From IMG/VR virus record IMGVR_UViG_2529292908_000005: a stretch of DNA of 14,191 bases, one strand, 5' to 3'. Both the position numbers and the translations under genes were made by a program. Positions 1-14,191 of this stretch are shown piece after piece. The DNA comes from a virus (lineage: Duplodnaviria; Heunggongvirae; Uroviricota; Caudoviricetes). The notes below the pieces were generated by a model, which saw nothing but the letters and a program-made list of their open reading frames with translations, did no database searches and had not been told where the DNA came from. Numbering within the stretch: the first letter of the stretch is position 1; every line of letters begins with the position of its first letter.

Positions 1-1578
1 ACCAGCATCATGCTCAAGGTACCAGGGGGCTCTTCCTGTTTCCTTGGTCAGTTTCATTGCCTTACCCCCGCTGGCTCCGGCATCATCCACGATTTGAGCC
101 TTGCCACCTCCGGCAGCCCAACCCTGTGGTGTCAACCGTCCTTCAGACTCAGATGCCCGGTAAGCAAATAGCGTACTCATCGTCGTGGTGTCTGCGGGTG
201 GCGTGGACGGTTTTGATGGTGTATCAGGTGACGGCTTCTCATCCGGTGGTGTCACGGTCTGCCCGCGCATCAGTTCAGCCGTGCGCCCTGCATGGAGCAT
301 AATAGCTGAGGCCAGACGGTCTGAAATGACGCCCCTGCGTGCCCATGAGCTGAAATGGCTGTCACGCTGTGTCGAAACAAAACTGCCCTGGGTTCGGGAT
401 GCTGCACCGTAATACCCGACAGCCACAATATCCGGGTCTTCCGCCGGAGCATTCGTTGGCGTGCTCTGTCCATTCTCATCCGTCAGGAACGGTACAAAGA
501 AAATTTTCTGTGCTTCCTTGCCTTTGTAGCCACCGTATACTGCCTCATATTTATCGGTGCCAGCGTTTTTCCAGTAATACGTGGTATCACCGCAAATCCA
601 CGGCACCGTGGTGGCATTTCCACTCACGCACTGCGCAGCAAGCGGAGCCAGGTCAGTTCTGAACTGCTGAACCATGGTCGTGAATAAACTATTATGCTGC
701 TGGCTTCCTGAGGCAAGGTCTGCCTCTCCCTGCATCCAGACCACAGCCAGAAGTTTGTTTTTCGGGTTTTTCGCCAGCGCGACTTTGGTGCGGCTTACCA
801 GGTCCTGATACAGAGGTTTACCGGCCCCCCAGCGTGAAGAATCAGCGGAAGCACCGCTGGCCTCACTGAATGAGCCGTCGGCTCCAGTGGTGAATGCTGA
901 CCCGCCACGACAACAGGGCACCAGAAGTATCCCGGCATTCTGTGGGATATAGGGAAGCAGTTTTTGGCAATATGCAACCCCTGACCGACAGTCCCGTACT
1001 GGCCTTTTGCCAGATCAGCTTTCGGGTGGTTTATCCCGCTCATATCCTGAACATCATGCAGGCAGTGGTCCGCCGGAATGATGTCGTTGTATGTACACGA
1101 CGTACCGTTGGGCGTTACCGTACTGCGGCGTGCCAGTTGCTTAATGCGTGGGTCCGGGCGGTCAAACGAATCCGGTAACGGCAGCCCCTCGCCGTAGGCC
1201 ATGCCATTTGACTGACCCGCGAGAATGACAACAAAGTAATATTCCGGCTCTGAACTGCTGCCATTCGTGCTACCGGAAGGCCCGGCGTTATCCGGTGCAT
1301 TCCAGTCGGAGGGCGTGAGCGTTCCGGCCACGTCAGATGTGATTGGAATGATGCCAGTCACGCCTGAACTGGTGATTTCTGCACTGGGATTACCGGATAC
1401 CGGCATTACCCATAATGGCTCTTTCGTGCTGAAGCGGATCACGCAGTCTGCGAAGGTGATCCCCCTTTATTACCCGAAGGGCGGAAGGGCTTTCAATAAA
1501 TGCCACCGTGCCACCGGCAACCTTGACTGAAAACTCTCCGGGCATGGCGGAGAGCATTTTCCACTTGGAGTCTGACAT
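1..1578 (-). pseudogene. nanS: NanS-p-like sialate 9-O-acetylesterase (SASA/SGNH domain) with extra N- and C-terminal regions; frame broken twice; 3' end runs off the window
   Basis: Minus-strand translation gives ...YYFVVILAGQSNGMAYGEGLP... (GQSN motif, ORF 795..1442) and, in the frame open from 960 to 1, ...LLPYIPQNAGILLVPCCRGGSAF...AVVWMQGEADL...GYYGA...; this matches NanS/YjhS-type esterases as recalled. N-terminal piece is ORF 1390..1578. Frame switches sit at C5 (1461-1465) and T5 (961-965). Pro/Thr-rich linker then a further domain towards position 1. Confidence 0.6.
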
Positions 1579-2236: not shown

Positions 2237-2301
2237 ACGATTTCCTTATTATAAAAAGCCGGAATTGTCGCATGAGGAATAAAACAGAGTTAATCCTGGC
2301 T

Positions 2302-2327
2302 TTCCTGAAAACCTCGGTTTACGGGAA
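2302..2327. other. gix/hix-like 26-bp invertase crossover site (left)
   Basis: TTCCTGAAAACC|TCGGTTTACGGGAA: two inverted half-sites around a central dinucleotide; right half nearly identical to the Mu gix half-site TCGGTTTACAGGAA as recalled. Confidence 0.8.
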
Positions 2328-2687
2328 ACGGTAAACAGGGCGGCGAATGCTCTGCCATCGGACGGCACCGCCGTTGCCGCGAATAGACTCGCCACCCCAA
2401 GAAATATTAATGGGGTTCCCTTTGACGGGACGCAGGACATAAACATCACTTCTGGTATAACACAGCAGGATGCGGATTCCCGATATATCCAGGATATCAG
2501 GCTGGGAGCAGAGAACAGGCAGGTAATGTACGGTGGGGCATATTACTCTGCGTACGGTAATGTTATGGCAGGCCTGCAGATTGACAGTAAAGTTGATGCT
2601 TCAAAACGATTTTATAGCATTCAGACCCCTGCAAAAATTAGTCGGAGGTACATGGATTACGGTATCTCAGTTATAAATAGTCAGTAA
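2313..2687 (+). CDS. Silent alternative tail-fibre C-terminal cassette (Sv'-like); no start codon of its own
   Basis: Frame open from the left crossover site to TAA 2685-2687, encoding [48 protein letters not shown]...YMDYGISVINSQ. The first ~25 residues repeat the peptide encoded across the right site in the expressed fibre gene, so inversion would fuse this cassette to the constant fibre region. Confidence 0.7.
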   Translation, partial: LGLRETVNRAANALPSDGTAVAANRLATPRNINGVPFDGTQDINITSGITQQDADSRYIQDIRLGAENRQVMYGGAYYSAYGNVMAGLQIDSKVDASKRFYSIQTPAKISRRYMDYGISVINSQ

Positions 2688-2765
2688 ATAATATATTTTA
2701 AAACAGATTTATTTCCAGGAGGATTTTATGGAACTAAAAATATAACCCGTTATTATCCTGAAAAT

Positions 2766-3248
2766 ATGCCATATGGTAATAATGTTCAGTATTTCCAGAG
2801 TGAAGATGGTAAGGATTTCTACGAATCCCTGTCATTATTCACCAAAAAATATAAACTTTGCATAACACCTGACAGCGGCGTTATCTGCTCAATATCACAG
2901 GACGCCTCGGCGCTGTATCCTGCGGGGTTTTCTGTGGTTGAGGTCGATGAACTCCCTGAAGGCACGGATATTTCAGGAAACTGGAAGTTTGATAATGGCA
3001 TAATCTCCCGTATTCCGGTTAACTACGCAAGAAAACTGGAAGCAATGCGCCAGTCATATCTTAATCAGGCATATGAAAAAATTAATGACTGGAGAACGGA
3101 GCTACAACTGGGCACCATCAGCGATGAAGACAGAGCAGCACTTACCCAATGGATGGCATACATCAGTCAGGTGAAGAAAATGGAACTACCCGCCATTAAA
3201 ACAGAAGCTGAATTTAACGCCATTAAATGGCCTGAGCAGCCACAGTAA
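2766..3248 (+). CDS. tfa: Tail-fibre assembly protein (Tfa / Mu U-like chaperone)
   Basis: 160-aa ORF ...YFQSEDGKDFYE...ALYPAGFSVVEVDELPEG...GNWKFDNGIISR...KWPEQPQ, the characteristic Tfa pattern. ATG 2766 has no SD; a stronger start (AGGAGG + ATG 2728) lies upstream in another frame (see findings). Confidence 0.85.
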   Translation: MPYGNNVQYFQSEDGKDFYESLSLFTKKYKLCITPDSGVICSISQDASALYPAGFSVVEVDELPEGTDISGNWKFDNGIISRIPVNYARKLEAMRQSYLNQAYEKINDWRTELQLGTISDEDRAALTQWMAYISQVKKMELPAIKTEAEFNAIKWPEQPQ

Positions 3249-3251
3249 TAA

Positions 3252-3271
3252 AGAAGGCCGGAAGGCCTTCT
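3252..3271. terminator. Hairpin between convergent tfa and fibre genes (probable bidirectional terminator)
   Basis: AGAAGGCC-GGAA-GGCCTTCT: perfect 8-bp GC-rich stem with 4-nt loop, 3 nt after the tfa stop; T-rich run (TTATTACTG) on the minus-strand side. Confidence 0.5.
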
Positions 3272-3385
3272 GAATATCATTATATACTTGCAGCCGTCAC
3301 CCATGCTCCATTTAACAGATACTGCAACGGCCGGTAATACACGCCGCCGACGTTATCTGCCGTATTCTTACCGACATCCTGTACT

Positions 3386-4162
3386 TTAATTCCGGTAAGA
3401 ACATTGCCGCCCCCCCAGATTCAGATCCCAGCTTTCCCATGTTCCGGGCATATGTGCGGTCACCGACCCCAGTCTTATGGCGGTTACTGTTCCTGATGAG
3501 ATAGTGATATCCTGCGTCCCGTCAAAGGGAACACCATTAATTGTGTGGGCATTTGCCAGCCTGTTCGCGGCAACGGCGGTGCCGTCCGATGGCAGGGCAT
3601 TCGCCGCCCTGTTTACCGTTTCCCGTAAACCGACGTTATCGATAAAAGCCCCTTTATCCGGAATGTCTGCGCCGTTCTGCTCCCTGCGCAGGTAACGGTT
3701 ATCACCTTCGCTTTTGCTGTAAACATCCAGATTATTACGGGCGGTTCCCTTATTCTCCAGGTCGGCGAGATTCTGATCCTTCGCCAGGGCATTAACGTCA
3801 CCGGGACCAAGACTGTTTTTTGTGGCAAGCGTCCCCAGACCAAGATAACCACGGGCCAGACGCTGGGCCTCCGCACCGGCATCAGCAATTTCTTTCAGGT
3901 TATTTTTCCGGGAAAAGGCATTCGCAGCGATAATGGCTTTAATGGACAGCGTAAGCTGGTTTAACTGCGCCTTATCCGGCTGAATACTGGCTTCAGCCAG
4001 AATATTCAGCAGTTCGGCCTGGAGAATATTCAGCCAGTCCTGACCAATCCAGCTGATACCTTTTTGTCCGTCACCTTCGGTAAACCAGGTGGTGGTATTA
4101 CTCTGCGCCGGTGCCAGCGCAGGCATATTCGCCACGCCGGAATTATTATCAACATGAAACAT
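3386..4162 (-). CDS. Tail fibre protein (Mu S / P2 H-like): constant N-terminal part plus variable C-terminus inside the invertible segment; C-terminus probably truncated by a frameshift
   Basis: 258-aa ORF with ...[48 protein letters not shown]... crossing the right gix-like site; ATG overlaps the upstream gene stop (TAATG). A C7 tract at 3410-3416 is followed by a stop 8 codons later, while the -1 frame stays open to 3280. Confidence 0.85.
3620..3645. other. gix/hix-like 26-bp invertase crossover site (right, inverted)
   Basis: Reverse complement reads TTATCGATAACG|TCGGTTTACGGGAA; same TCGGTTTACGGGAA half-site as the left site and TTATC...AAC outer half as in Mu gix as recalled; lies inside the fibre coding sequence (encodes FIDNVGLRE). 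Confidence 0.8.
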
Positions 4163-4722: not shown

Positions 4723-5795
4723 GTGATTTCTCCTACCGTCAGCAGCTCACTGTCTCCCGCCTGAACTGACGTCAGCGGACTGCGCACTTCAAAATCCTCC
4801 AGATTTTTCACCCCTGCCACCGCCCGCCAGAAAGACGACGGCAGAACCAGACCGCCGGGCCGGGATTCGTTATACAACAGGTCGGTCAGCGCCTGTTTTA
4901 CGGCCGCCTGATTCTCCGGTGTTTTCGGGATGATCCTGATGCTGAAGGGCACCGGCTTATTGGTCAGTTTAAACACGGTCACCGTCGGCCCCAGAGGCTG
5001 TCCGACAGGCTGGCCGGTCGCCGGATCATCATGACTGCGGATATAATCCGCCACCCGCTGAACATCACCGTCACCGGGGAAAATATCCGGGTTATTATCC
5101 TGAACAAACGTTACCCCCACGCTGCCCGCCTGCGGCCATTCCGGGCGGCACCATGCCCGCGTCACGCCCGGCACTTCACGCGCCCAGCGTTCAAAATCAT
5201 ACTGCGTGCCGCCGGACGGTGGATTCTGCACCCGGAAAACCAGACGGGAAAGCAGCTCCGGCACGGTTTCCACATCCGCACCACCGGTGATCCCCGTTCC
5301 GGTCACCGTGGACGTCTGGTTGATCCCCGCCTGCGGTGTGATAAATGTCAGTTTTGTCCCTGCCGGGGCATTCCCCGCACGACCGGCACTTTCGGCTTCC
5401 ACACTGACATTCAGCGTACCGGCCTTACCGGTCAGGGAGGTGGTGATACGGTAAACCACGCCATCACTTCGCTGGAGAAGCACACCTTCCTTGATCCCCG
5501 CATCCGTGGTCAGCATCAGCTGAACCGGCCCGTCCCCCCGAGAGGCAGGCTTACGCATGACGCCCCAGAATGCACAGTGTTTCAGCAGTTCGGCTTCATC
5601 GGCTTCGGTCGGGATGATCTGACGCGCAATCCAGGCCAGATGCTCATGCTCCTGAGCAGATAACCCTGCCTGAGCGTAAGCAATGGCATTCAGGGTGGTT
5701 TCATTCACACCCGGCTGCGAGCCGGGCAGGCGCTGGCTGATATCCTGCTGTGTCTGCGTGATTAACTGTGCCAGCGGTAAAGGCTGATAAGGCAT
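4713..5795 (-). CDS. Baseplate J-like protein (Mu gp47 / P2 gpJ family)
   Basis: ORF-track frame 4713..5837 starts at TTG; a better start is ATG 5793-5795 (MPYQPLPLAQ...) with a GGG-containing SD. Translation shows the J-family layout (...ADEAELLKH.AFWGV.RK.A..A.G...GGADVE...) recalled from P2 J. Confidence 0.85.
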   Translation of the reverse strand: MPYQPLPLAQLITQTQQDISQRLPGSQPGVNETTLNAIAYAQAGLSAQEHEHLAWIARQIIPTEADEAELLKHCAFWGVMRKPASRGDGPVQLMLTTDAGIKEGVLLQRSDGVVYRITTSLTGKAGTLNVSVEAESAGRAGNAPAGTKLTFITPQAGINQTSTVTGTGITGGADVETVPELLSRLVFRVQNPPSGGTQYDFERWAREVPGVTRAWCRPEWPQAGSVGVTFVQDNNPDIFPGDGDVQRVADYIRSHDDPATGQPVGQPLGPTVTVFKLTNKPVPFSIRIIPKTPENQAAVKQALTDLLYNESRPGGLVLPSSFWRAVAGVKNLEDFEVRSPLTSVQAGDSELLTVGEITWL

Positions 5796-5954
5796 TAACC
5801 CTGTTCGATAAGGGGCTGATTTCCCGTGAGGAGGCAATACATATTATCAATCTCGCTCAAAAAAACTCTACCCCGGAAAATGCAGAAGATATCCAGGATG
5901 GCTCATATATTAATACCGACTGGCATTTCGACAATCTCCGGGCCTGTATGGGGA

Positions 5955-6242
5955 TTACCGCTGAAAAAGATTAAAAATTTTTGCATAATGTTCAGATGTA
6001 AGAATTGCTGAACCATCAACACCGAGCCTGCGGCGAACGTATTCCTCGCGGGCTATTTTATTATCCAGAGATACAGCATCCTTAATCAGGTTAATCTCCC
6101 GCTCCATTATCAAAAGGGCTTCTCTGGCTGCAAGATTTTCTTTTATCGCATATTCGATAATGTCCCGCATACGTTCAAGCATGCCGATTTTAGCCAGTTC
6201 TTCGTCGATAGATTTAGGCGCAAATTTGATTTCTTTTTCCAT
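5955..6242 (-). CDS. Hypothetical protein, predicted all-helical, encoded in AT-rich DNA
   Basis: ORF-track 5955..6257 (GTG start); preferred start ATG 6240-6242 (MEKEIKF...) with GAGGA SD 8 nt upstream, 1 nt after the stop of the upstream zinc-ribbon ORF; markedly lower GC than neighbours. Confidence 0.5.
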   Translation of the reverse strand: MEKEIKFAPKSIDEELAKIGMLERMRDIIEYAIKENLAAREALLIMEREINLIKDAVSLDNKIAREEYVRRRLGVDGSAILTSEHYAKIFNLFQR

Positions 6243-6243
6243 A

Positions 6244-6387
6244 TTATTCATCCTCACAATTTATACATGCAGTGTCGTCGCCCATATCGCAGTGGTTACA
6301 TTTTATCTCACCACAATGTGGGCACTCTTTCAGATACTCCGGGTCCTCATTTCCACAGGTGGGACATTCAACAATTTGCTCATCCAT
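6244..6387 (-). CDS. Small 4xCxxC zinc-ribbon protein (47 aa), not in the ORF track
   Basis: ATG 6385-6387 to TAA 6244-6246 translates MDEQIVECPTCGNEDPEYLKECPHCGEIKCNHCDMGDDTACINCEDE: four CxxC pairs in 47 residues; AGGGGA SD 7 nt upstream; start overlaps the stop of ORF 6380..6712 (ATGGATGA). Confidence 0.5.
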   Translation of the reverse strand: MDEQIVECPTCGNEDPEYLKECPHCGEIKCNHCDMGDDTACINCEDE

Positions 6388-6712
6388 TATGTATCCCCTG
6401 TAATTCCGGCAAGGCCGAAAGATGGCACCAGTGCGTCACCTGTCCGTCCTCATCTTCAAGGCAGGCTCCGGTTTCTTCATCAATAAAAAAGCCTTCATAC
6501 CCCATATGGCCGATGCGCAGTTCCTGTTGGTCACCATACTGAACAATCAGCACGACAGCCTCCATATCAGGCGGAAATGCGTCATCCAGTGAATGCCAGG
6601 GATAACCGCGCAAATCCCCGAAATAAACGCCGGTCAGCGTTCCGCCACAGAGCGGCATTCCGGCGGCACACACAAGAGGTTCATCTGATTCAACAAATAA
6701 GGTCGTTATCAT
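6380..6712 (-). CDS. Hypothetical protein (110 aa)
   Basis: ORF with ATGA start/stop overlap to the upstream gene at 6709-6712; acidic C-terminal half; no family recognised. Confidence 0.55.
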   Translation of the reverse strand: MITTLFVESDEPLVCAAGMPLCGGTLTGVYFGDLRGYPWHSLDDAFPPDMEAVVLIVQYGDQQELRIGHMGYEGFFIDEETGACLEDEDGQVTHWCHLSALPELQGIHNG

Positions 6713-7260
6713 GGCGTTAACTCCCGTAATACAGCGTCCTCGGCAGTCCGGCGACGGTAATAAACTGCGTGAGCAGAATGTTCAGATATTCCAAACTTTT
6801 CGCCAATTTCCCGGAATGACAGACGGCGTGGGTAATCGGAATCACGCAGCGCACGTATAAGACGTACATCATCATCAGATATGCGCGTGCCGGGGCGTAA
6901 CTCTCCGCACTTTGTTAATCCAGCACCAATCATTCCTGCCCGACATCTGACAGAATCTTTATTACGTCCGAGATATTCTCCCATTTGCTGGCAGGTCATT
7001 GTTCTGGCATTTTTTCGAATAAACTTATCTTCATCAGGTGTAAATCTTGGGTGTTTATATTTCAGTAACTCCGGGTATGAACTGCGCAATACACCAGTCC
7101 GGTTATATACAGCCCAGACAGTTCTTTTTATTCTGGCAGCAATATCCTTAACCGGGGTGGATGAATAAAGCGCAATCAGTAGCGCATCTTCTTCAGGTGT
7201 CCACGCGCGGACATGAGCGGGTGTACGACCTTTTCGCCCCATGGGTTGTAATTTCATCAT
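6709..7260 (-). CDS. Putative DNA-binding protein with tandem Myb/SANT-like HTH repeats
   Basis: 183 aa; repeats ...RAWTPEEDALLIALYS...IAARIKRTVWAVYNRTGVL and ...RFTPDEDKFIRKNARTMTCQQMGEYLGRNKDSVRCRA, plus a third weaker HTH-like segment; strong AGGGGGTGA SD; start 3 nt after the upstream stop. Confidence 0.6.
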   Translation of the reverse strand: MMKLQPMGRKGRTPAHVRAWTPEEDALLIALYSSTPVKDIAARIKRTVWAVYNRTGVLRSSYPELLKYKHPRFTPDEDKFIRKNARTMTCQQMGEYLGRNKDSVRCRAGMIGAGLTKCGELRPGTRISDDDVRLIRALRDSDYPRRLSFREIGEKFGISEHSAHAVYYRRRTAEDAVLRELTP

Positions 7261-7263
7261 GCA

Positions 7264-7779
7264 TCACCCCCTGACTCGCTTTTCAGCAGCATAAAACTCA
7301 TCAGACAGTATTTCGGTCATTTTCTGTTTTGCGGGTTTTACGCCGCACTGAAGGTAAATCACATCGTCAACGCAGAACCACTTCACAGGGCCAAACAGGA
7401 TTGCCGAGAAATCAATACCCAGCCAGAACAACAGCGCATCGGTTCTGGCATACGTGACGGGTGAATATTCACGCCACAGACTGTTCAGTTCATCAGAGGC
7501 AACACGCAGGGTTTTAGGGATACGTGATGTGCGCGGTGTGCAGCTCCAGCCATTCGACGCAGTCGGTTTTCGCCATAAGTCGCGATGAAAAGGATATTTG
7601 TCCTCCGTAAAACGCAGTCCCTTAAAGCAAAATCCACTGATACCGGATACAAATACCGACCGGCACGCAACATTCAGCACGGCCTCAAGGCGTTTTGCCT
7701 CATCCTTAACTTTCTGGCAGTCCTGCTGGTATTTTTGCCACGCAGCCAGCGCGGAAGGGTTTGATGTTTTAAAGAACAT
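7264..7779 (-). CDS. Hypothetical early-region protein (171 aa)
   Basis: ORF whose ATG shares a nucleotide with the upstream stop (TAATG at 7777-7781); no family recognised. Confidence 0.55.
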   Translation of the reverse strand: MFFKTSNPSALAAWQKYQQDCQKVKDEAKRLEAVLNVACRSVFVSGISGFCFKGLRFTEDKYPFHRDLWRKPTASNGWSCTPRTSRIPKTLRVASDELNSLWREYSPVTYARTDALLFWLGIDFSAILFGPVKWFCVDDVIYLQCGVKPAKQKMTEILSDEFYAAEKRVRG

Positions 7780-8312
7780 TACGCCACCTCCGCAGATATC
7801 CCGGCAGGCGCTGCTGTCCGGTCAACAATCAGGTAGCGCAGAACATGTTCAGTGATATTCCAGCCGCTTAAACCGCAGATAATGACGCCCAGGCGTATGT
7901 CGATATACGCCATCACAAACTGGGGCACGCCTTCTTTCATGGCCTGCTCATCAACTTCAGCCACCACATAAACGGTTTCACAGGTCAGAACGCCCTGAGC
8001 AAATTCCCACGCCATCGACGGAATATCATGCCCCTCAATCCATGGCAGGGATTTTCTGAAGCCGCACCACTGAACATCATCAGCCGCAGATTCCTGGCTG
8101 CATTTGCGACGAACCGGCTGCACCGGGCGGGGGCGCGGAATATCATAAAAACCGTTACATTCCGTCAGCACGCCTGCATCAACCGCATCACGCAGAAAAT
8201 AAACCATGGAGGATGGCGGCATATTCATTTTTTCAGCCAGTACACCGCAGGTCAGGCGGCCATAAATACGCAGCCAGTTTTTAACCCCTTCAAGCACTTT
8301 TGCATCAATCAT
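7779..8312 (-). CDS. Hypothetical early-region protein (177 aa)
   Basis: ORF with GGGGAAA SD 7 nt upstream of ATG 8310-8312; first gene after the 145-bp AT-rich gap downstream of gam; no family recognised. Confidence 0.55.
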   Translation of the reverse strand: MIDAKVLEGVKNWLRIYGRLTCGVLAEKMNMPPSSMVYFLRDAVDAGVLTECNGFYDIPRPRPVQPVRRKCSQESAADDVQWCGFRKSLPWIEGHDIPSMAWEFAQGVLTCETVYVVAEVDEQAMKEGVPQFVMAYIDIRLGVIICGLSGWNITEHVLRYLIVDRTAAPAGISAEVA

Positions 8313-8457
8313 GATTTATTTCCCCACCACATTATTAATGACGATATAAACGTATTTCATATTTCTTAACCCTTATTTTCTGTTTTCAGGCGCAAGCAGT
8401 CCCCTGACGCGAGCGCCATAATTAAAATGAAGTGATATTTAATTGATTAATGCGGTG

Positions 8458-8988
8458 TTATTTATTCAGTCCGGCGTCCTGTTCAAAAGGCTCGACATAA
8501 AAACTTTCAGCGCCTTTATTCACCTTGATACCGGCAATGCCTTTCACAGCATCCGGCTCCGCCAGGACGGCTTCCTTGTTCACTTCCTCTTTCGTGCGGA
8601 TGAAACGCTCAAGCCCCATACGGCGCAGCATTTCAATCACACCTTCCACATCACGGCTGACGCTGCATGATGGCGTTCCCAGCCGCCATGACACCGTTCC
8701 GGTGGTCAGATTGGCTGTTTTGGTTTTGCCGCCGTTCGTCAGCTCATCACGGTTGGTTTTGCACCAGTCCTGAATCCCTTTAAAAAGCACTTTGATTTGC
8801 TTTTTAAGATTTTCAATCTGCGGCGTATAACGGGCGGTGATTTCTGCCACTTCGTCATTCATCGCCGTTTCCAGGCGCAGCGCCTCTCGCTGAATATCTC
8901 CCAGGGTGCGGATATCACGGCTGACTTCTTCCCGGGTCTGCGGTGCCGCCTCGGCTGCGGCCTTTAATTTTGTAACGCGTTTAGCCAT
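8458..8988 (-). CDS. gam: Gam-like host-nuclease inhibitor (Mu Gam family, DNA-end binding)
   Basis: 176-aa ORF MAK...DIRTLGDIQREALRLETAMNDEVAEI...DWCKTNRDELTNGGKTKTANLTTGTVSWR...ERFIRTKEEVNKEAVL...EPFEQDAG, co-linear with Mu Gam as recalled; AGGA SD. Confidence 0.9.
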   Translation of the reverse strand: MAKRVTKLKAAAEAAPQTREEVSRDIRTLGDIQREALRLETAMNDEVAEITARYTPQIENLKKQIKVLFKGIQDWCKTNRDELTNGGKTKTANLTTGTVSWRLGTPSCSVSRDVEGVIEMLRRMGLERFIRTKEEVNKEAVLAEPDAVKGIAGIKVNKGAESFYVEPFEQDAGLNK

Positions 8989-8999
8989 TTTGTTTTTCC

Positions 9000-9293
9000 T
9001 TATTGCAGTGTGCCTGATGCTTTATGCACGCGGTGGCGTTTAATGATGGCATCCGCTCCAAAAGACTGTGCAGATGCCTGAAATTCCGCTGAGAGAAACT
9101 GAATAATTGCAGGACTGTGATACTGGAGAATACTTGCATAAACGTCACAGAGTGACGTCGGCCTGTTATCCGTATCACGTTCTGTTTTTACATCCACACC
9201 AATCTTTTCATGCACTTCAACACTGTCATTGCCTGCCGGTTTTTCGTCATGCGAAACATGCTCAAATTCAAAAATAACGCGTACTTTGCTCAT
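9000..9293 (-). CDS. Hypothetical small early protein (paralogue 1 of a tandem pair)
   Basis: ORF-track 9000..9320; preferred start ATG 9291-9293 (MSKVRVIFEFEHV...) with GGGG SD, 4 nt after the upstream gene stop; N-terminus parallels the upstream gene (MSKVVRIIFEYKE...). Confidence 0.55.
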   Translation of the reverse strand: MSKVRVIFEFEHVSHDEKPAGNDSVEVHEKIGVDVKTERDTDNRPTSLCDVYASILQYHSPAIIQFLSAEFQASAQSFGADAIIKRHRVHKASGTLQ

Positions 9294-9297
9294 GGAA

Positions 9298-9570
9298 TTA
9301 CCCCTGCTGATTAAATTCATTACCGTTAATAACCCCGGAAGCCATGCCTCTGTCTTTCATGAATGCACTGGCTTTCATTGCCACAAACTCTGCGAAGTTT
9401 CTGCTTTCTGCCAGCATAACCACCCCAAAAATCATGGCGGGTCCATTATCTTTCTTCTTTATTCCGGTTGAACGTATATCCAGACTTACCCCTCTGTGCG
9501 TGCTGCCATCAGAGTTTTTGCAGATAACATCTTCCTTGTATTCGAAAATAATGCGTACGACTTTACTCAT
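9298..9570 (-). CDS. Hypothetical small early protein (paralogue 2 of a tandem pair)
   Basis: 90-aa ORF MSKVVRIIFEYKEDV...; 4-nt start/stop overlap with the upstream gene. Confidence 0.55.
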   Translation of the reverse strand: MSKVVRIIFEYKEDVICKNSDGSTHRGVSLDIRSTGIKKKDNGPAMIFGVVMLAESRNFAEFVAMKASAFMKDRGMASGVINGNEFNQQG

Positions 9571-9848
9571 CCTCTGGTCCTCGTTCTGTTTGGATAACTG
9601 ACCCGGCGTCTAACCTCACGGCAGAACCGAATCATGGCATTAAAGGCTTCTTCCTCCGTCACCGCTTCCGGTATCCCAGGAACCAGTAGCTGTTCCTGTT
9701 CATCGCGTCCATGACGCGCCATAACCTCAATCACATGCCGTACCGTGGCAGGCTTTCCGGCAACTATCGGCAATGCACCTTCCGGCAGGACGTAACCAAA
9801 CTCAATAAGACCACTCGACCACGCCCATGCAATGAGATTTCGTTTCAC
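9567..9848 (-). CDS. Hypothetical small early protein (93 aa)
   Basis: ORF packed between neighbours in the B-to-gam interval; no family recognised. Confidence 0.5.
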   Translation of the reverse strand: MKRNLIAWAWSSGLIEFGYVLPEGALPIVAGKPATVRHVIEVMARHGRDEQEQLLVPGIPEAVTEEEAFNAMIRFCREVRRRVSYPNRTRTRG

Positions 9849-9849
9849 C

Positions 9850-10116
9850 TCACACCTCCCAGTAAACCGTGCAGCCGCTGATGCGGGTGGCCTTCACACG
9901 GCGGCGCAGGCCGTTGGTCTGTATGGTGATTTCAATTTCACCGGTTCCCTGCACGTTGCCTACCGGCGGCGTGGTTTTCAGTGCAAAACGTTGCGGATAG
10001 CGCTTACTGCGTTCCAGTACCGCACCGGCAAGTTCGGTCAGACGGCGCGCGCTGTTCAGGGAGTCGAATAAATTCATTTTGTTACCGCAGGATTGCATAT
10101 TCATATAACACCTCAT
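9850..10116 (-). CDS. Hypothetical small early protein (start ambiguous: ATG at 10116, 10104, 10098 or 10077)
   Basis: ORF directly following the upstream stop (TAA ATG); several in-frame ATGs, GAGGTG SD-like element before 10104/10098; sits where kil-type genes lie in Mu, but no sequence recognition. Confidence 0.45.
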   Translation of the reverse strand: MRCYMNMQSCGNKMNLFDSLNSARRLTELAGAVLERSKRYPQRFALKTTPPVGNVQGTGEIEITIQTNGLRRRVKATRISGCTVYWEV

Positions 10117-10338
10117 TTAGCTGACTTGTTTCGCACCAACAGAACGGCATATTCCGCTGTAAACTTCTGTCGCACCTTCGCGATCAAGTCCGGCAGATAT
10201 CACCATTCGTGTGCGGTCATTAAATTCAAAAAGTAAATCGCCACATTCTTTATTTTCGGCCAGTGAAATCACCTTCACGTTATCGAAATTAACCAGGTAA
10301 AAGCGTCCGTAAATATCAGGAATATTAAATACCGCCAT
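10117..10338 (-). CDS. Hypothetical small early protein (73 aa)
   Basis: ORF-track 10117..10344 (GTG); ATG 10336-10338 with AGGTG SD 5 nt upstream is preferred; begins 2 nt after the B stop. Confidence 0.5.
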   Translation of the reverse strand: MAVFNIPDIYGRFYLVNFDNVKVISLAENKECGDLLFEFNDRTRMVISAGLDREGATEVYSGICRSVGAKQVS

Positions 10339-10340
10339 AA

Positions 10341-11273
10341 TCACACCTGTGAGAGTAATTCAGGGTTGGTATAAACCTCTTTAAAGGCCGCATTAATATG
10401 TTTTTCTGTCAGCGCCGCGCCTTCACCGCTGGCGGTGAGCCACGCCTGGTTAAGCGTATGTGTCAGAACGCGTAACGCTCCCGGCTTTTCAGCGATAGCC
10501 TGCATGACGGCCAGCTCGGCCTCACCACTGATACCCCATGCCCTGGCAATGGCCAGCACATCCGCCTTTTTGGCCTTGCGAAGTTGTTTTGTACGGGCAA
10601 GACGGCTGAACAGGCGCGATAAATCATCAAAGGCGCGGCGTCCACCTTTAAACAATCCGCGCGGGTTACCAATAAGCACCATCCCGATCCCCGTGGCGTC
10701 CTGAATTGCCCGGAGTTGCTCCAGACCGTCAATACCAAGATGATCCGCCTCATCCACAATCACCAGTCCACGCGTTCCCGTCAGGCGACGGCGGATGGCG
10801 CGGGATAATGCCCCTTTGTTCGCGCGGGTGTAATCAATCCCCAGCGCATCGGCCAGCTCCAGCAGACACTCCGTGACGCTGGAGTGCGCGGGTGACAGGG
10901 TGATCATCCAGGTGTTTGGTTGCTCCTGGCAGTAATTACGGGCAGTGGCCGTTTTACCCACACCCGGTACGCCCACAATAACGTTAATACAGCCCATCAG
11001 GCGAACCGCCTGAAACAGTGCGCGCAGCTCCTGGACTGTCTGAGTTTCCACAAACTGCGGCGGTTCCGGCAGTGCGCTTTGTTTATTCCAGTTCTCATAC
11101 CAGGAGCGCAGGGAAGCAGCCACAGCGGCGTTATCGCCTTTATATTTCCCCTTGCGGAAAGCCGATAATGTGCCGTCGGAAATTCCCGCCTCTCTGGCGA
11201 TGGCATACTGCGTCAGCACGCCGCCATCAATAAGTTCATCAATGGTCTTGATTACATCGTTTATATCGGTCAT
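10341..11273 (-). CDS. B: MuB-like transposition target-capture protein (AAA+ ATPase)
   Basis: 310-aa ORF with Walker A VGVPGVGKTATARNY, ...LVIVDEADHLG..., N-terminal HTH-like region, and co-linearity with Mu B as recalled (...GDN..V...L..W...PEPP.FVETQTV...KPGALR.L...); GAGG SD; directly downstream of the transposase. Confidence 0.92.
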   Translation of the reverse strand: MTDINDVIKTIDELIDGGVLTQYAIAREAGISDGTLSAFRKGKYKGDNAAVAASLRSWYENWNKQSALPEPPQFVETQTVQELRALFQAVRLMGCINVIVGVPGVGKTATARNYCQEQPNTWMITLSPAHSSVTECLLELADALGIDYTRANKGALSRAIRRRLTGTRGLVIVDEADHLGIDGLEQLRAIQDATGIGMVLIGNPRGLFKGGRRAFDDLSRLFSRLARTKQLRKAKKADVLAIARAWGISGEAELAVMQAIAEKPGALRVLTHTLNQAWLTASGEGAALTEKHINAAFKEVYTNPELLSQV

Positions 11274-11312
11274 ATTATTACCTCGCGTTTGTGTAGTTCC
11301 TTTGTTTAATCA

Positions 11313-11348
11313 AATAACCTGAGTCGCCGCTCGGGTTATTTTTTATTT
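11313..11348 (+). terminator. Stem-loop plus T-tract in the A-B intergenic region; reads as an intrinsic terminator on the strand antisense to A/B
   Basis: AATAACCTGAG-TCGCCG-CTCGGGTTATT (11-bp stem with one G-U pair on the plus-strand RNA) followed by TTTTATTT; on the sense (minus) strand the stem has a C-A mismatch and a weaker U-tract. Confidence 0.35.
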
Positions 11349-13438
11349 CAGGCCAGAGGGTCATTTTCTTTTAATTTCGCTTCAAGCAGCTGCAATCCCC
11401 GCTGGAAATTACGCTCGTATTCTTCATCAGGTTCATCGTCAGCGACCGGTTGCTGAACGATCACCGTATTACCCACAGGGCGGTATATATTTTCCAGCCA
11501 CGGCTCCTGTGGCTTGTGCTCCAGCACGTTGACAATCTCATCCTCGGCATCACGGATTTTTTCCTCTGCGCGTTTACGCATGCCTTTAAGGCGCTGCTGC
11601 TGTTTGTGGTATTCCGCGCTGACCGGGAAGGCTTCGCGTTTATTGCCGTCCCATACCGCCTCGCAAATCACGCTGCCATCCGGGCGACGTACGGTAATTC
11701 GTTCGGCATCATGAATGTCATAGCTGATAAGCACCTTACGACCATGCTCGTCACGCAGCTCGGGCGCGTAGTAAATATTATTCAGCCAGCGTATTTCACA
11801 GCGTCTTACAGGGCGTTCCACCATCGGCCGGAACATATCCCGCAGCTCAACATCGGACAGCCATTCAATTTCCGTGTCCTCTTCCGCCAGGCGTTTTTTT
11901 CTGAACTCCGCCGGGCTGTAATGCTTGCCGTTCGGCTTCACCGGTAATTCATCGTGCGGCCGGTTGTTGTACCACTCAACACCATCACGAATGGCATCAA
12001 TCAGTTCAGCCCAGGACGGTAAATCACGCATCGCTGACTGCTGCCGGGCGTTCAGCCGTTTGCCCTGTTGCAGGGCAGTAAATGCCGAGCGTAAATCGCG
12101 GTTGGTTTTGCGTAACGTCTCGCGATCTGCACCTTTCCCGAAATAGGTGCGGTATTTACGGGCTATGCGCATCGGTAATGTGCGGTTAAGCCGTTCGATA
12201 ATGCCTCGTCCCTGCGGATTACCGGCAATCCCGGTCGGGTGATTAATCCCCAGTCGCGGCAGTATCCCCACAACCTCCTTATCCAGGATGTCGGCGGTTT
12301 CCCCGGAGCCGTTATCCGAGTAATACAGAAACGGTTTGCCGTGATGGCGAATGCCGTGCTGTATGGCACCGGCTACGGCGAAAACATTTTCAGCCAGGTC
12401 AAGGCTCCAGCCCACCACAAAGCGCGTGCCACCGTCGATAACAAAGGTCACTTCCGGTGCAAATGGCCGACCGTGAACCGGGTGTGCGCATTTCAGCTTC
12501 ATGCCGTGACCGTCACCAATCCAGACATAATTCACCGGCATTTTTGACCAGTCGCGGCGCGTGAATCCCTCAAGCTGGCGGTATTCACTGCCGGTCACCC
12601 GGCCTTTTTGTTTCACCACTTCCGGCAGTTTCTTCATTGCGCGGCGAATGGTGTCATAAGACGGCATGATATCGAGCATATAAGGCTCATCAGCGTGCCG
12701 GTGCTGCCATTCAGCAACAAAATCCTCGTAAGCCTCGGTCATTGGTCGGCCGTTTGACTGGCGATACTGCGCCAGAAATTCGGGCAGCCAGTTAATATCT
12801 TCGGCTTTTATTTCCTGGCGCTTACCCGGTGCCAGTAAAAGCAGGCGTTCAGCGGCGTTCTGCGCCTTGTTAAAGGCCGCAATCCAGCGTTTCAGCGTGA
12901 TTTCACTTAACGCGCGGCTGTTTCCCTTTTTGGCGTTCGCCGTCTCAACCATTGCCACAATGCGCTCGTCCAGCTGCGAACGTGCCAGGTTGTCAACGAT
13001 AAACCGGATAGCCTTCGCACAGCTGAAACCAGGTTGTTGCGCGACTTTCAGCACCTCGCTGACGATCGCGATTCGTGCATCAGCCACCTGGCGCTGGTTT
13101 TCAGTCAGGGCATTAAGGCGTTCAACCATCAGTTGTGGTGATCCGCGATATGCCTCCACCGCATCAACCACGGCAGGCGAGCGTCTGGCCTTTGTCACCA
13201 CTGGAGCCGGTGATTCATCGACTTTTTGAGTCATCAGTTGCAGGGCGTAGCGTTCACGTAATGCCTGCTGCGTCACTTCAGGTAAACAGTCGATGCTGTA
13301 TTCAGTTGCTTTAGAGCCTGAGCGACGACGGGAACAACAGCTTTTCCCTTGTACGTAACGTTGTAATGCCTGGCGAATACCTTTTGTTGTAGCAGGCATT
13401 CCGGGCGCGCCAATCAGTTCTTTTGCAATGACATACAT
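11348..13438 (-). CDS. A: Mu-type DDE transposase (MuA-like)
   Basis: 696-aa ORF of MuA size, immediately between ner-like and B-like genes; start 1 nt after the ner stop (TGATATG); internal ...YVWIGDGHGMKLKC... core region. Assignment rests mainly on size and conserved ner-A-B synteny. Confidence 0.9.
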   Translation of the reverse strand: MYVIAKELIGAPGMPATTKGIRQALQRYVQGKSCCSRRRSGSKATEYSIDCLPEVTQQALRERYALQLMTQKVDESPAPVVTKARRSPAVVDAVEAYRGSPQLMVERLNALTENQRQVADARIAIVSEVLKVAQQPGFSCAKAIRFIVDNLARSQLDERIVAMVETANAKKGNSRALSEITLKRWIAAFNKAQNAAERLLLLAPGKRQEIKAEDINWLPEFLAQYRQSNGRPMTEAYEDFVAEWQHRHADEPYMLDIMPSYDTIRRAMKKLPEVVKQKGRVTGSEYRQLEGFTRRDWSKMPVNYVWIGDGHGMKLKCAHPVHGRPFAPEVTFVIDGGTRFVVGWSLDLAENVFAVAGAIQHGIRHHGKPFLYYSDNGSGETADILDKEVVGILPRLGINHPTGIAGNPQGRGIIERLNRTLPMRIARKYRTYFGKGADRETLRKTNRDLRSAFTALQQGKRLNARQQSAMRDLPSWAELIDAIRDGVEWYNNRPHDELPVKPNGKHYSPAEFRKKRLAEEDTEIEWLSDVELRDMFRPMVERPVRRCEIRWLNNIYYAPELRDEHGRKVLISYDIHDAERITVRRPDGSVICEAVWDGNKREAFPVSAEYHKQQQRLKGMRKRAEEKIRDAEDEIVNVLEHKPQEPWLENIYRPVGNTVIVQQPVADDEPDEEYERNFQRGLQLLEAKLKENDPLA

Positions 13439-13439
13439 A

Positions 13440-13688
13440 TCATGACGCCTTTCTCATATAGCTCTTAACCTGGTATCGACTGGGCCAGATTTCTTCAGGC
13501 GATACCCCAAGAGCATCAGCAATTATTTGCTGATACGGTCGGCAAGGAGTACGTAATACGCTTTTCAGCGAATCCCTGCTGTAACCAGCCTTTAAAGATA
13601 AAGAGCGCAGTGATAAGCCAGCCATGTGTAAGCGCGCCTTGATGATTTCAGGCGGCCAATCGTGATCTGAAACTTCTCTTCTACTCAT
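13440..13688 (-). CDS. ner: Ner-like DNA-binding regulator (Ner/Nlp family)
   Basis: 82-aa ORF ...DWPPEIIKARL...GLSLRSLSLKAGYSRDSL...QQIIADALGVSPEEIWPSRY..., co-linear with Mu Ner / E. coli Nlp as recalled; first gene of the early operon, divergent from the repressor. Confidence 0.88.
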   Translation of the reverse strand: MSRREVSDHDWPPEIIKARLHMAGLSLRSLSLKAGYSRDSLKSVLRTPCRPYQQIIADALGVSPEEIWPSRYQVKSYMRKAS

Positions 13689-13855
13689 ACTTCCTCTATT
13701 CTAAAAAGTTACCCGCGCGGATATTCGTGCGGATATCTGTACGGGTAAATAATAGAACAAGCAAAAGAACCAAATCAAGGTATTTTGTTCTTTTTATTCT
13801 TTGCGGTGTTTTTGTTATTAATATCAATAAGATAAATAAAAAGGAACCTGAGAGC
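13689..13855. promoter_or_regulatory. Divergent early promoter/operator region between ner and the repressor gene
   Basis: 167-bp AT-rich intergenic region. Direct repeats GCGGATAT at 13717-13724 and 13729-13736 nested in inverted arms TTACCCG (13709-13715) / CGGGTAA (13742-13748). Candidate leftward promoter: -35 TTGATT (13773-13778) and -10 TATTAT (13749-13754), 18-bp spacer. AAGGAA SD for the repressor at 13841-13846. Confidence 0.5.
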
Positions 13856-14191
13856 ATGAACATGAAAAACAGTTCTTTTCTCGACGAAGGAAAAGAACCA
13901 GTGATCGAACGGATTTTTCGTCTTGCAGAGCGTTACAAATCGAGAAGTGAGGCGGCTAGAGCATGGGGAATAAACGTTCAGACATTGCAGAACTACTACA
14001 AAAGGAGAAACAATCAGCCGCCACCACAACCAAGAAAGCACCATCTCCAGAACATTGCAGAAAGAGAACATGTATCTATGGAGTGGCTGGTCAATGGTTA
14101 TGGTGATGAGCCAAGCATGAAAAAAGAACCAATTGAACAAACAAAAAGAACAAAAAACAAAGAATTGATGATAGTGATTCCATCATCATGA
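13856..14191 (+). CDS. Prophage repressor, CI-type HTH (Phage_CI_repr-like); ends at the window edge
   Basis: ORF-track frame 13727..14191; preferred start ATG 13856 (MNMKNSS...) with AAGGAA SD 9 nt upstream; HTH segment ...SRSEAARAWGINVQTLQNYYK... and the ...VSMEWLVNGYG motif typical of CI-type repressor N-domains; divergent from ner-A-B. Confidence 0.7.
   Translation: MNMKNSSFLDEGKEPVIERIFRLAERYKSRSEAARAWGINVQTLQNYYKRRNNQPPPQPRKHHLQNIAEREHVSMEWLVNGYGDEPSMKKEPIEQTKRTKNKELMIVIPSS

What the first reader, a model, noticed from the sequence alone, without database searches (positions are those of the whole stretch)
5955..10338. Eleven tightly coupled small genes of unknown function flank gam: candidate anti-defence or host-takeover cluster
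Apart from gam, none of the small genes between B and the tail junction is recognisable to me. They are co-directional and mostly joined by ATGA/TAATG overlaps, which argues that they are real, co-translated genes. The corresponding Mu region houses kil, gam and other host-interaction functions, and phage early regions are where anti-restriction and anti-defence proteins concentrate. The six genes after gam (177, 171, 183, 110, 47 and 95 aa) are the least Mu-like part.
Basis: inference. Interest (0 to 1): 0.5.

Follow-up and report, generated by a model that had tools for sequence, protein, structure and literature searches.

The report
Mu-type semi-essential early gene cluster
The twelve small genes are real, but they are the already known accessory "semi-essential early" block of a Mu-like E. 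coli prophage (here a deleted, defective copy), with a Kil homologue, Gam and mostly Mu-homologous genes of untested function, so the finding is largely ordinary.

Summary
The gene structure is confirmed. Twelve co-directional minus-strand ORFs, gam plus eleven others, fill 5955-10344. Spacings run from -8 to +12 nt, apart from one 145-nt gap. All are under purifying selection.

The block is the counterpart of phage Mu's semi-essential early (SE/SEE) region, downstream of ner-A-B. It sits in an Sp18-type Mu-like prophage. That block is present in 232 of 5,426 complete E. coli genomes.

Seven of the twelve genes have Mu homologues:
- g2 matches Kil.
- g9 matches Mu gp9 (hhalign probability 95.9%).
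- gam is 57% identical to Mu Gam.
- g7, g8, g11 and g12 match gp11, gp12, gp13 and gp14.

The non-Mu genes are g1, g3, g4, g5 and g10.

g3 belongs to a family of 828 database hits that NCBI labels "host nuclease inhibitor". A confident model shows only a weak MbtH-like resemblance, which does not support that label.

"Host takeover" fits Kil, Gam and the Mu literature. "Anti-defence" remains untested beyond Gam.

Two side findings: a deletion at 5796/5797 removed gemA through gp46, and a conserved, covarying hairpin lies downstream of gam (8377-8429).

The parts
10117..10338 (-). g1, 73 aa (75 from the GTG start at 10344). First gene after B. No Mu homologue. Alleles vary between prophages.
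   Evidence: ORF. PHROG 3375, unknown function, E 1.3e-46. 51% identical to the 80-aa protein in the same position of the Salmonella Mu-like prophage. dN/dS 0.13-0.24 with dS up to 0.77, indicating allele exchange.
9850..10104 (-). g2, 84 aa: Kil-family protein, a divergent homologue of Mu Kil/gp5.
   Evidence: PHROG 2679 'Kil protein for bacterial septation inhibition', E 7.8e-46, plus the Mu Kil family 2743 at E 1e-3. Mu Kil reciprocally hits 2679 at E 9.3e-5. 67% identical to the Salmonella protein carrying Pfam PF26843 Kil_protein.
9567..9848 (-). g3, 93 aa: member of a family of 828 database hits in Mu-like prophages, labelled 'host nuclease inhibitor protein' by NCBI and PHROG without supporting evidence.
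9298..9570 (-). g4, 90 aa: narrowly distributed gene of unknown function.
   Evidence: PHROG 4107. Only 10 representative clusters among 1.84 billion proteins at E<=0.001, several of them fragments or repetitive proteins. dN/dS 0.31-0.33.
9000..9293 (-). g5, 97 aa (106 from the upstream ATG): unknown function, possible distant paralogue of g4, most variable allele.
   Evidence: PHROG 2230. 64-96% identity between prophages that share 98-99% identical B and Gam. dN/dS 0.35. g4/g5 BLASTP E 6e-4, but hhalign probability only 19.7%. Weak relatives in the same slot in L007 and L009.
8458..8988 (-). gam: Mu-type (Ku-like) double-strand DNA-end-binding protein.
   Evidence: Pfam PF07352 E 5.5e-42, above the curated cut-off. 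57% identical to Mu Gam over the full length. dN/dS 0.01-0.15.
8377..8429 (-). Conserved intergenic hairpin element downstream of gam: TTTTAATTAT-GGCGC-ucGCGUCAGGGGACuGCuu-GCGCC-TGAA.
   Evidence: Conserved with Mu, Salmonella, Kluyvera, Pantoea and IMG/VR Mu-like contigs. Outer-stem covariation CG:10/UA:7/UG:1 and AU:6/GC:3. 88.8% of cells paired against <=56% in slid registers. Covariance model finds one copy per Enterobacterales locus, E<=1e-8. No Rfam family.
8316..8360 (-). 14-codon remnant ORF: all that remains of the 180-aa gene (PHROG 2260; the same slot holds a Pfam DUF5420 protein in Salmonella) that relatives carry between gam and the gp11 homologue.
   Evidence: Window 8343-8520 and 8250-8320 match the two ends of that gene's slot in L002, L004 and L006, with about 520 bp missing in between. 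The gene is annotated in L002, L004 and L006.
7779..8312 (-). g7, 177 aa: orthologue of Mu gp11. Probable N-terminal winged helix plus a Gp11_C domain.
   Evidence: 69% identical to Mu gp11. Pfam Gp11_C E 5.8e-41. The three best sub-threshold profile hits to PDB are MarR, Lrp/AsnC and CodY winged helices on residues 8-52, E 0.5-1.2, which is suggestive only.
7264..7779 (-). g8, 171 aa: orthologue of Mu gp12, unknown function.
   Evidence: 54% identical to Mu gp12. PHROG 2314. The Salmonella counterpart carries Pfam PF26885 Phage_Mu_Gp12. No PDB sequence match.
6709..7260 (-). g9, 183 aa: basic Myb/SANT-like plus HTH protein, a longer homologue of Mu gp9 (E8) placed after gp12 instead of before gam. 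Probable DNA-binding regulator.
   Evidence: PHROG 323, E 6.6e-53, the same family as Mu gp9. hhalign probability 95.9%, E 5.5e-9, to Mu gp9. Sub-threshold Pfam hits to Myb and AsnC-type HTH. pI 10.0.
6380..6712 (-). g10, 110 aa: very acidic protein (pI 4.05, 19 acidic and 2 basic residues). No Mu homologue. Sits in a variable slot.
   Evidence: PHROG 6925. Weak DUF551 hit, E 0.06. Only 17 close homologues in E. coli and Salmonella. Absent from L003 and L004. AF2 model unusable, pLDDT 54.
6244..6387 (-). g11, 47 aa: orthologue of Mu gp13. Acidic, with eight cysteines in four CxxC pairs (double zinc ribbon).
   Evidence: 88% identical to Mu gp13 over 41 aa. PHROG 5584. Sub-threshold zinc-ribbon Pfam hits.
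5955..6242 (-). g12, 95 aa: orthologue of Mu gp14, unknown function.
   Evidence: 49% identical to Mu gp14. PHROG 6075.
5796..5797 (.). Deletion junction that ends the early region. Everything from inside the gp15-like gene through gemA, mor, lysis, head and tail genes up to gp46 is missing. The baseplate gp47 gene starts 2 nt away.
   Evidence: Window up to 5797 matches L004 up to the gp47 start. Window from 5796 onward matches the intact relatives L035 and L002 inside the gp15-like gene.

Best explanation
The block is the semi-essential early (SE/SEE) region of a Mu-like transposable prophage of E. coli, of the O157 Sp18 type. It is a run of dispensable accessory genes lying directly downstream of ner-A-B. 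It is most likely read as part of the single long early transcript from the early promoter after the repressor is lost (inferred from layout and from Mu).

Two products have recognisable roles. A Kil-family protein is toxic to the host and disturbs cell division or shape. Gam binds double-stranded DNA ends and shields phage DNA from RecBCD.

Two others are probable DNA-binding regulators: the gp11 homologue, with a putative winged helix, and the Myb/HTH gp9 homologue. The remainder (gp12, gp13 zinc ribbon, gp14, g1, g3, g4, g5, acidic g10) are small proteins whose most likely job is to bind and modulate host or phage proteins early in lytic growth. That last step is inference.

The block is mosaic. 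A conserved Mu-type core (kil, gam, gp11-gp14, a gp9-like gene) is interleaved with replaceable cassettes in the B-gam interval, the gam-gp11 slot and the gp12-gp13 slot.

This copy sits in a defective prophage that lost gemA through gp46.
For: Context. c, ner, A and B lie upstream on the same strand, with a promoter-like site before ner and no minus-strand terminator-like site inside the block. Intact relatives that are 97.6% identical over 5796-14191 (L002) and 99.3% identical over the block (L035) continue into gp16/GemA, Mor and lysozyme.

Homology to Mu. Gam 57%, gp11 69%, gp12 54%, gp13 88%, gp14 49%. Kil by PHROG and by 67% identity to a Pfam Kil_protein-bearing protein. The gp9 family by hhalign, 95.9%.

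Real genes. dN/dS is 0.01-0.35.

Mosaicism. g1, g4, g5 and g9 alleles are 64-90% identical between prophages whose B and Gam are 98-99% identical. The 180-aa gene is present or absent. g10-g12 are replaced in L003 and L004. Across 23 distant Mu-like loci, only gam, gemA and mor are broadly kept.

Literature. The Mu SE region has 14 ORFs, is part of the long early transcript with A and B, and its deletion restores host viability (PMC3325207). [quoted passage not shown]

Prevalence. The block is present in 232 of 5,426 complete E. coli genomes.
Against: No expression or phenotype data exist for this element. Co-transcription is inferred from layout and consensus scans only.

The Kil assignment rests on a divergent family relationship; direct BLASTP to Mu Kil gives only 26 bits.

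The winged helix in the gp11 homologue is supported only by sub-threshold hits.

For nine of the twelve proteins the proposed action, binding host or phage partners, is a default assumption. In a prophage that has lost lysis and morphogenesis genes the block may never be usefully expressed.
Confidence: 0.85

Rival explanations
1. Dedicated anti-defence island. Several of the unknown genes, especially the cassette genes g1, g3, g4, g5 and g10, are inhibitors of bacterial immune systems such as restriction, RecBCD-linked systems or abortive infection. They are expressed first to disarm the host.
For: The genes lie in an early operon next to Gam, a RecBCD antagonist. The cassettes show allele replacement and relaxed constraint: g4 and g5 dN/dS 0.31-0.35, dS up to 0.8. 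g10 is very acidic (pI 4.05), as many DNA-mimic inhibitors are. g3 is widespread in Mu-like prophages and stays in place even where Gam is replaced by DUF3164. Gam-type proteins interact with defence systems such as Gabija (PMC12407980).
Against: No similarity to any characterised inhibitor was found by sequence. The g3 model gave only weak MbtH-like and Bro-N-like resemblance. Seven of twelve genes are conserved with Mu, where decades of genetics assigned only kil, gam and replication or immunity phenotypes. Two of the genes look like DNA-binding regulators. Variability can be explained by ordinary phage mosaicism.
Confidence: 0.25
2. Accessory factors for transposition and replication and for regulation of the phage itself. 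These would be the counterparts of Mu's arm and cim phenotypes, acting on phage DNA or phage promoters rather than on the host.
For: Mu genetics maps arm (amplified replication) and cim (immunity control) to this region (PMC4553209). The gp11 homologue and g9 are probable DNA-binding proteins. gp11-gp14 are the best conserved part and are under the stronger constraint, dN/dS 0.11-0.28. A conserved cis element lies just upstream of the gp11 homologue.
Against: The Mu record now equates cim with kil. No protein here resembles a known replication or transposition factor. gp11 is confined to Enterobacterales and gp12 was not detected in any of the 23 distant Mu-like loci, so they are not general requirements of Mu-type transposition.
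Confidence: 0.3
3. Inert relic. Because this prophage lost gemA through gp46, the block is simply decaying cargo with no current function in this genome.
For: The deletion junction is at 5796/5797. Frameshifts are present in the neighbouring DUF6645 and tail-fibre genes. The 180-aa gene has been reduced to a 14-codon remnant.
Against: All twelve ORFs are intact and 99.3% identical to those of an intact prophage. The signal of purifying selection was inherited from functional phages, so it cannot distinguish recent inactivity. This explanation is about present use, not about what the genes are.
Confidence: 0.2

Closest known systems
Semi-essential early (SE/SEE) region of Escherichia phage Mu (Mup05-Mup15, 4.3-8.2 kb)
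   Same: Same position, after B and before gemA/mor in intact relatives. Same strand and tight packing. Homologues of kil, gp9, gam, gp11, gp12, gp13 and gp14 are present. The same conserved hairpin lies downstream of gam.
   Different: Mu gp6, gp7 and gp8 are absent. g1, g3, g4, g5 and g10 are absent from Mu. An extra gene (g1) sits between B and kil. The gp9 homologue is twice as long and sits after gp12. Protein identity is 33-88%, and DNA similarity is detectable over only a third of the block.
Sp18-type Mu-like prophages of E. coli (O157:H7 and others) and the Mu-like element inserted in Stx phages LC727895 and LC727881
   Same: The same block at 90-99% DNA identity in 232 of 5,426 complete genomes. 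The same gene order from B through the g9 homologue.
   Different: O157 copies carry the 180-aa gene between gam and the gp11 homologue. After the Myb protein they carry a different set of genes (103, 116, 110, 65 and 98 aa). They have divergent g4 and g9 alleles and are not deleted for gemA-gp46.
Salmonella enterica Mu-like prophage early region (L030-L033)
   Same: The same architecture: B, g1-like, Kil_protein, g3-like, g5-like, [end-protection slot], DUF5420, Gp11_C, Phage_Mu_Gp12, Myb-like 182 aa, g10-like, then GemA and Mor. The same hairpin is present.
   Different: A DUF3164 protein occupies the gam position. There is only one g4/g5-type gene. Identities are 50-80%.
Early accessory and anti-defence gene clusters of other phages, for example host-interaction genes in the early regions of Pseudomonas Mu-like phages (own knowledge, not tested here)
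   Same: Small, tightly packed, fast-turnover early genes next to conserved replication or transposition genes.
   Different: No sequence or structural link to any characterised member was found. Membership is not claimed.

Membership tests
Mu-type semi-essential early region | Lies downstream of ner-A-B on the same strand in a Mu-type transposable phage, and upstream of gemA/mor. | tested here: met
   c, ner, A and B are upstream. gemA and mor are deleted in the window but follow the block in the 99.3%-identical intact relative L035.
Mu-type semi-essential early region | Contains kil and gam homologues. | tested here: met
   Gam: Pfam PF07352 E 5.5e-42, 57% identical to Mu Gam. Kil: PHROG 2679 E 7.8e-46 and 67% identity to a Pfam Kil_protein-bearing protein.
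Mu-type semi-essential early region | Shares the other Mu SE ORFs. | tested here: inconclusive
   gp9, gp11, gp12, gp13 and gp14 homologues are present. gp6, gp7 and gp8 are absent and five non-Mu genes are present. The match is partial, as expected for a mosaic region.
Mu-type semi-essential early region | Transcribed as part of the long early transcript; dispensable for growth. | not testable with these tools
   Only consensus scans were possible. They found a promoter-like site before ner and no minus-strand terminator-like site in the block.
Mu Gam / Ku-like DNA-end-binding proteins (Pfam PF07352) | Full-length match to the family profile above the curated threshold. | tested here: met
   143.7 bits against a cut-off of 28.3, covering profile positions 1-149 of 149.
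Host nuclease inhibitors (the label carried by the g3 family) | Sequence or fold similarity to a characterised nuclease inhibitor (lambda Gam, Mu Gam, T7 gp5.9, Abc2). | tested here: not met
MbtH-like proteins | Strong fold match, the conserved tryptophan signature, and association with non-ribosomal peptide synthetases. | tested here: not met
Known anti-defence proteins (Ocr, ArdA, Acr, Tad, Gad and others) | A match to a curated anti-defence profile or structure. | not testable with these tools
   No anti-defence library was available. PADLOC holds defence systems and gave nothing. PHROG functional labels gave only Kil, Gam and 'host nuclease inhibitor'.
Winged-helix transcription regulators (N-terminus of the gp11 homologue) | A significant profile match to a winged-helix family. 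| tested here: inconclusive
   The three best PDB hits of the gp11 profile are MarR, Lrp/AsnC and CodY helix-turn-helix regions on residues 8-52, but at E 0.5-1.2.

The most novel reading that the evidence does not exclude
At least one of the five non-Mu cassette genes is a new inhibitor of a host defence or DNA-repair function. The most plausible candidates are the widespread g3 family, which has a confident novel-looking small fold and an unsupported 'nuclease inhibitor' label, and the very acidic g10. Separately, the conserved covarying hairpin downstream of gam may be a previously undescribed cis-acting RNA element, for processing, stabilisation or attenuation, of the early operon of enterobacterial Mu-like phages.
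Probability: 0.3. Interest if true: 0.55.

Novelty: already known. Interest (0 to 1): 0.28.

Why it matters
The value here is mainly corrective. The block is a textbook feature of Mu-type phages, and near-identical copies are already annotated in hundreds of E. coli genomes. It should not be flagged as a new system.

It does mark a set of conserved phage early proteins whose functions have stayed unknown since the Mu genome was sequenced: gp11-gp14, the g3 family and acidic g10.

The work also provides three things:
- a precise map of which slots are conserved and which are replaceable, which is the information needed to choose candidates for anti-defence or toxicity screens;
- evidence that the 'host nuclease inhibitor' name on the g3 family has no support in sequence or fold;
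- a conserved structured element in the early operon that could be tested by transcript mapping.

Tried and rejected
- NCBIfam and PADLOC scans of ten proteins gave nothing useful.
- PDB sequence searches of g3, g7, g8 and g9 gave nothing significant.
- The first homologue search for g3 returned only near-identical proteins. An alignment query was needed to reach the family.
- The homologue search for g10 found only 17 close relatives. The resulting AF2 model was unusable (pLDDT 54), so no fold search was run on it.
- The AFDB50 fold library was not available.
- BFVD search with the g3 model gave only weak baculovirus Bro-type hits at E 0.07. I rejected these as evidence.
- g4/g5 tandem paralogy is suggestive by BLASTP (E 6e-4) but not confirmed. 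hhalign probability was 19.7%, and g5 was not among the hits of an exhaustive g4 search.
- The g1 versus Mor BLASTP hit (26 bits in a 16-sequence database) was dismissed as chance.
- A Pfam scan of cargo genes in the variable slots of relatives found nothing.
- The degenerate hairpin pattern saturated the IMG/VR scan with GC-rich chance matches. Only the 11 contigs that also encode Mu early proteins were kept, and nine of those were used in the alignment.
- Rfam gave no family for the hairpin. It is not a classical intrinsic terminator because no T-run follows it.
- Literature searches found no functional study of Mu gp11-gp14 or of the Sp18 early genes.

Full report
WHAT IS THERE. The window is a Mu-like prophage read on the minus strand. 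A repressor gene lies at the right edge (13727-14191, plus strand). It is followed by ner (13440-13688), the transposase A (11348-13438) and the AAA+ protein B (10341-11273). Twelve further minus-strand ORFs then tile 5955-10344.

With the longest ORF starts, the spacings are -4, 0, +1, -4, -23, +11, +145, -1, +3, -4, -8 and -14 nt. With the ATG starts that RefSeq uses in near-identical relatives, all junctions lie between -8 and +12 nt except the 145-nt gap after gam. Most starts are preceded by a purine-rich Shine-Dalgarno-like stretch.

A simple scan finds a promoter-like site just upstream of ner and no minus-strand terminator-like site inside the block.

THESE ARE REAL GENES. I compared each gene with five relatives (L002-L006). 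Nei-Gojobori dN/dS is well below 1 wherever there are enough substitutions:
- gam 0.01-0.15
- g7 and g8 0.11-0.17
- g1 0.13-0.24
- g9 0.06-0.27
- g10 0.15-0.18
- g11 0.24
- g12 0.28
- g4 0.31-0.33
- g5 0.35

RefSeq annotates eleven of the twelve in a 99.3%-identical intact prophage. Only the 47-aa gene is missed.

IDENTITY OF THE BLOCK. DNA searches place the block in a family of E. coli Mu-like prophages of the type known as Sp18 in O157 Sakai. It occurs in 232 of 5,426 complete E. coli genomes, with at least 80% coverage in 227 of them.

Phage Mu itself is detectable at about 68% DNA identity over a third of the block. Protein comparison with Mu gives:
- gam = Mu Gam, 57%
- g7 = gp11, 69%
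- g8 = gp12, 54%
- g11 = gp13, 88%
- g12 = gp14, 49%

g2 is a Kil-family protein. It hits PHROG 2679 at E 7.8e-46, with a cross-hit to the Mu Kil family 2743. Mu Kil reciprocally hits 2679. g2 is 67% identical to a Salmonella protein that carries Pfam Kil_protein.

g9, a basic 183-aa protein with sub-threshold Myb and AsnC-type HTH hits, falls in the same PHROG as Mu gp9. It aligns to Mu gp9 by profile-profile comparison at 95.9% probability, E 5.5e-9.

So seven of the twelve genes have Mu counterparts, including five of the six genes after gam. The non-Mu genes are g1, g3, g4 and g5, all between B and gam, plus g10.

The block is the counterpart of Mu's semi-essential early region. That region has 14 ORFs and is transcribed with A and B on the long early transcript. 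Its deletion restores host viability after infection with replication-defective Mu (PMC3325207). [quoted passage not shown]

MOSAIC STRUCTURE. Among close relatives, B and Gam proteins are 98-99.7% identical. In contrast, g1 (77-100%), g4 (81-100%), g5 (64-96%) and g9 (72-99%) occur as divergent alleles with high synonymous divergence, dS up to 0.8. This indicates allele exchange rather than only fast protein evolution.

Relatives carry a 180-aa gene (PHROG 2260; a DUF5420 protein in Salmonella) between gam and the gp11 homologue. In the window lineage that gene is reduced to a 14-codon remnant at 8316-8360.

The slot after the Myb protein holds different sets in different prophages: 110+47+95 aa here, 61+110+65+98 aa in L003 and L004, and 103+116+110+65+98 aa in O157.

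A Salmonella Mu-like prophage has the same architecture, with a DUF3164 protein in place of Gam.

Across 23 distant Mu-like loci retrieved through Gam, only gam, gemA and mor recur widely. gp11 homologues are confined to Enterobacterales. g3 homologues appear sporadically: in L007 directly upstream of gam, and in Pseudomonas L018 as the C-terminal half of a 156-aa protein.

THE UNKNOWN PROTEINS.

g4 is nearly an orphan, with ten representative clusters among 1.84 billion proteins. g4 and g5 share an MSKV-R-IFE start and a BLASTP E of 6e-4. Profile comparison (19.7%) does not establish paralogy.

g10 is strikingly acidic, with pI 4.05, and has a weak DUF551 hit. It has few homologues, and its model was unusable.

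g11 has four CxxC pairs.

The gp11 homologue has the Pfam Gp11_C domain. Its N-terminus draws only sub-threshold hits, but all are to winged-helix regulators.

NCBIfam, PADLOC and PDB sequence searches added nothing.

HOW IT MOST LIKELY WORKS. Shown:
- the position and homology of the block;
- that the genes are real and tightly packed;
- the presence of a Kil-family protein and a Mu-type Gam.

Inferred from Mu:
- co-transcription from the early promoter after derepression;
- host toxicity through Kil;
- protection of phage DNA ends from RecBCD by Gam;
- dispensability of the block.

Inferred from weak sequence signals: DNA binding by the gp11 homologue and by g9.

Default assumption only: the remaining small proteins act by binding host or phage partners.

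The anti-defence reading is neither supported nor excluded for the cassette genes. I put it at about 0.25-0.3 for at least one gene.

SURROUNDINGS. Homology with intact relatives stops at window 5796, and homology with the baseplate gene gp47 starts at 5797. The two matches share a 2-nt overlap, only 2 nt upstream of the gp47 start codon. So gemA, mor, the lysis genes and all head and tail genes up to gp46 are deleted.

The plus-strand ORF at 5768-5974 is the truncated remnant of a gp15-like gene. Other relatives carry different internal deletions. The DUF6645 and tail-fibre genes to the left carry frameshifts relative to relatives.

SIDE FINDING. The 97-nt stretch after gam is conserved with Mu and with Salmonella, Kluyvera and Pantoea prophages. 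Its core is a hairpin, GGCGC-N-GCGUCAGGGGACUGC-N-GCGCC, flanked by TTTTAAWTAT and TGAA.

It occurs once per locus and always on the sense strand of the early operon. It lies in front of different genes: gp11, the 180-aa gene, gp12 or gemA.

The outer stem covaries (CG 10, UA 7, UG 1; next pair AU 6, GC 3). 88.8% of cells are paired, against at most 56% in shifted registers. A covariance model finds it in all Enterobacterales Mu-like loci held, at E<=1e-8. It finds none in the Gilliamella/Orbaceae, Pseudomonas or Rodentibacter loci. Rfam has no matching family, and no T-run follows it. Its role is unknown.

VERDICT. One comparative claim is wrong. The entity is a known feature of a known prophage family, so novelty is low. 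What remains of interest is the long-standing lack of functions for these conserved early genes, the unsupported annotation of the g3 family, and the conserved hairpin.

Noticed in passing
window 8377-8429 (- strand): Conserved hairpin with covarying outer stem and a conserved CGUCAGGG loop core, downstream of gam. It occurs once per locus in Mu and in all Enterobacterales Mu-like prophages examined, always on the sense strand of the early operon. No Rfam family matches and it is not a classical terminator.
   Followed up: partly
window 8316-8360 (- strand): A 14-codon remnant ORF is all that is left of a 180-aa gene (PHROG 2260, DUF5420-like) that related prophages carry between gam and the gp11 homologue. 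About 520 bp has been deleted internally.
   Followed up: yes
window 5796-5797; 5768-5974 (+): A clean internal deletion joins the truncated gp15-like gene to a point 2 nt upstream of the baseplate gp47 start codon. It removes gemA, mor, lysis, head and most tail genes. As a result the gp47 ORF gains about 14 foreign N-terminal codons if read from the TTG at 5837.
   Followed up: yes
L003 (CP103972) and L004 (CP069093): Other members of this prophage family carry independent internal deletions of structural genes at different points. They still keep the early region, the tail-fibre/Gin segment, the DUF6645 gene and mom/com.
   Followed up: no
window 1-1578 and 3283-4162 (- strand): The DUF6645 gene and the tail-fibre S gene are broken by frameshifts relative to 99.6%-identical relatives (4 indels in 2.3 kb). 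These are either pseudogenes or assembly errors. The twelve early genes have no such breaks.
   Followed up: partly
L030-L033 (Salmonella enterica), 6572-7210: In an otherwise collinear Salmonella Mu-like prophage, a 212-aa DUF3164 protein occupies the exact position of gam. This suggests a functional replacement for end protection.
   Followed up: no
window 9567-9848 and database family (P0001-P0123): The name 'host nuclease inhibitor protein' given by NCBI and PHROG to this 80-156-aa family (828 database hits) has no support in sequence or in the predicted fold. It looks like propagated annotation.
   Followed up: partly
window 2249-3304: The tail-fibre assembly gene (2766-3248, + strand) and tail-fibre fragments lie inverted next to a Gin-type invertase (1664-2236). 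This is an invertible host-range segment like Mu's G segment.
   Followed up: no
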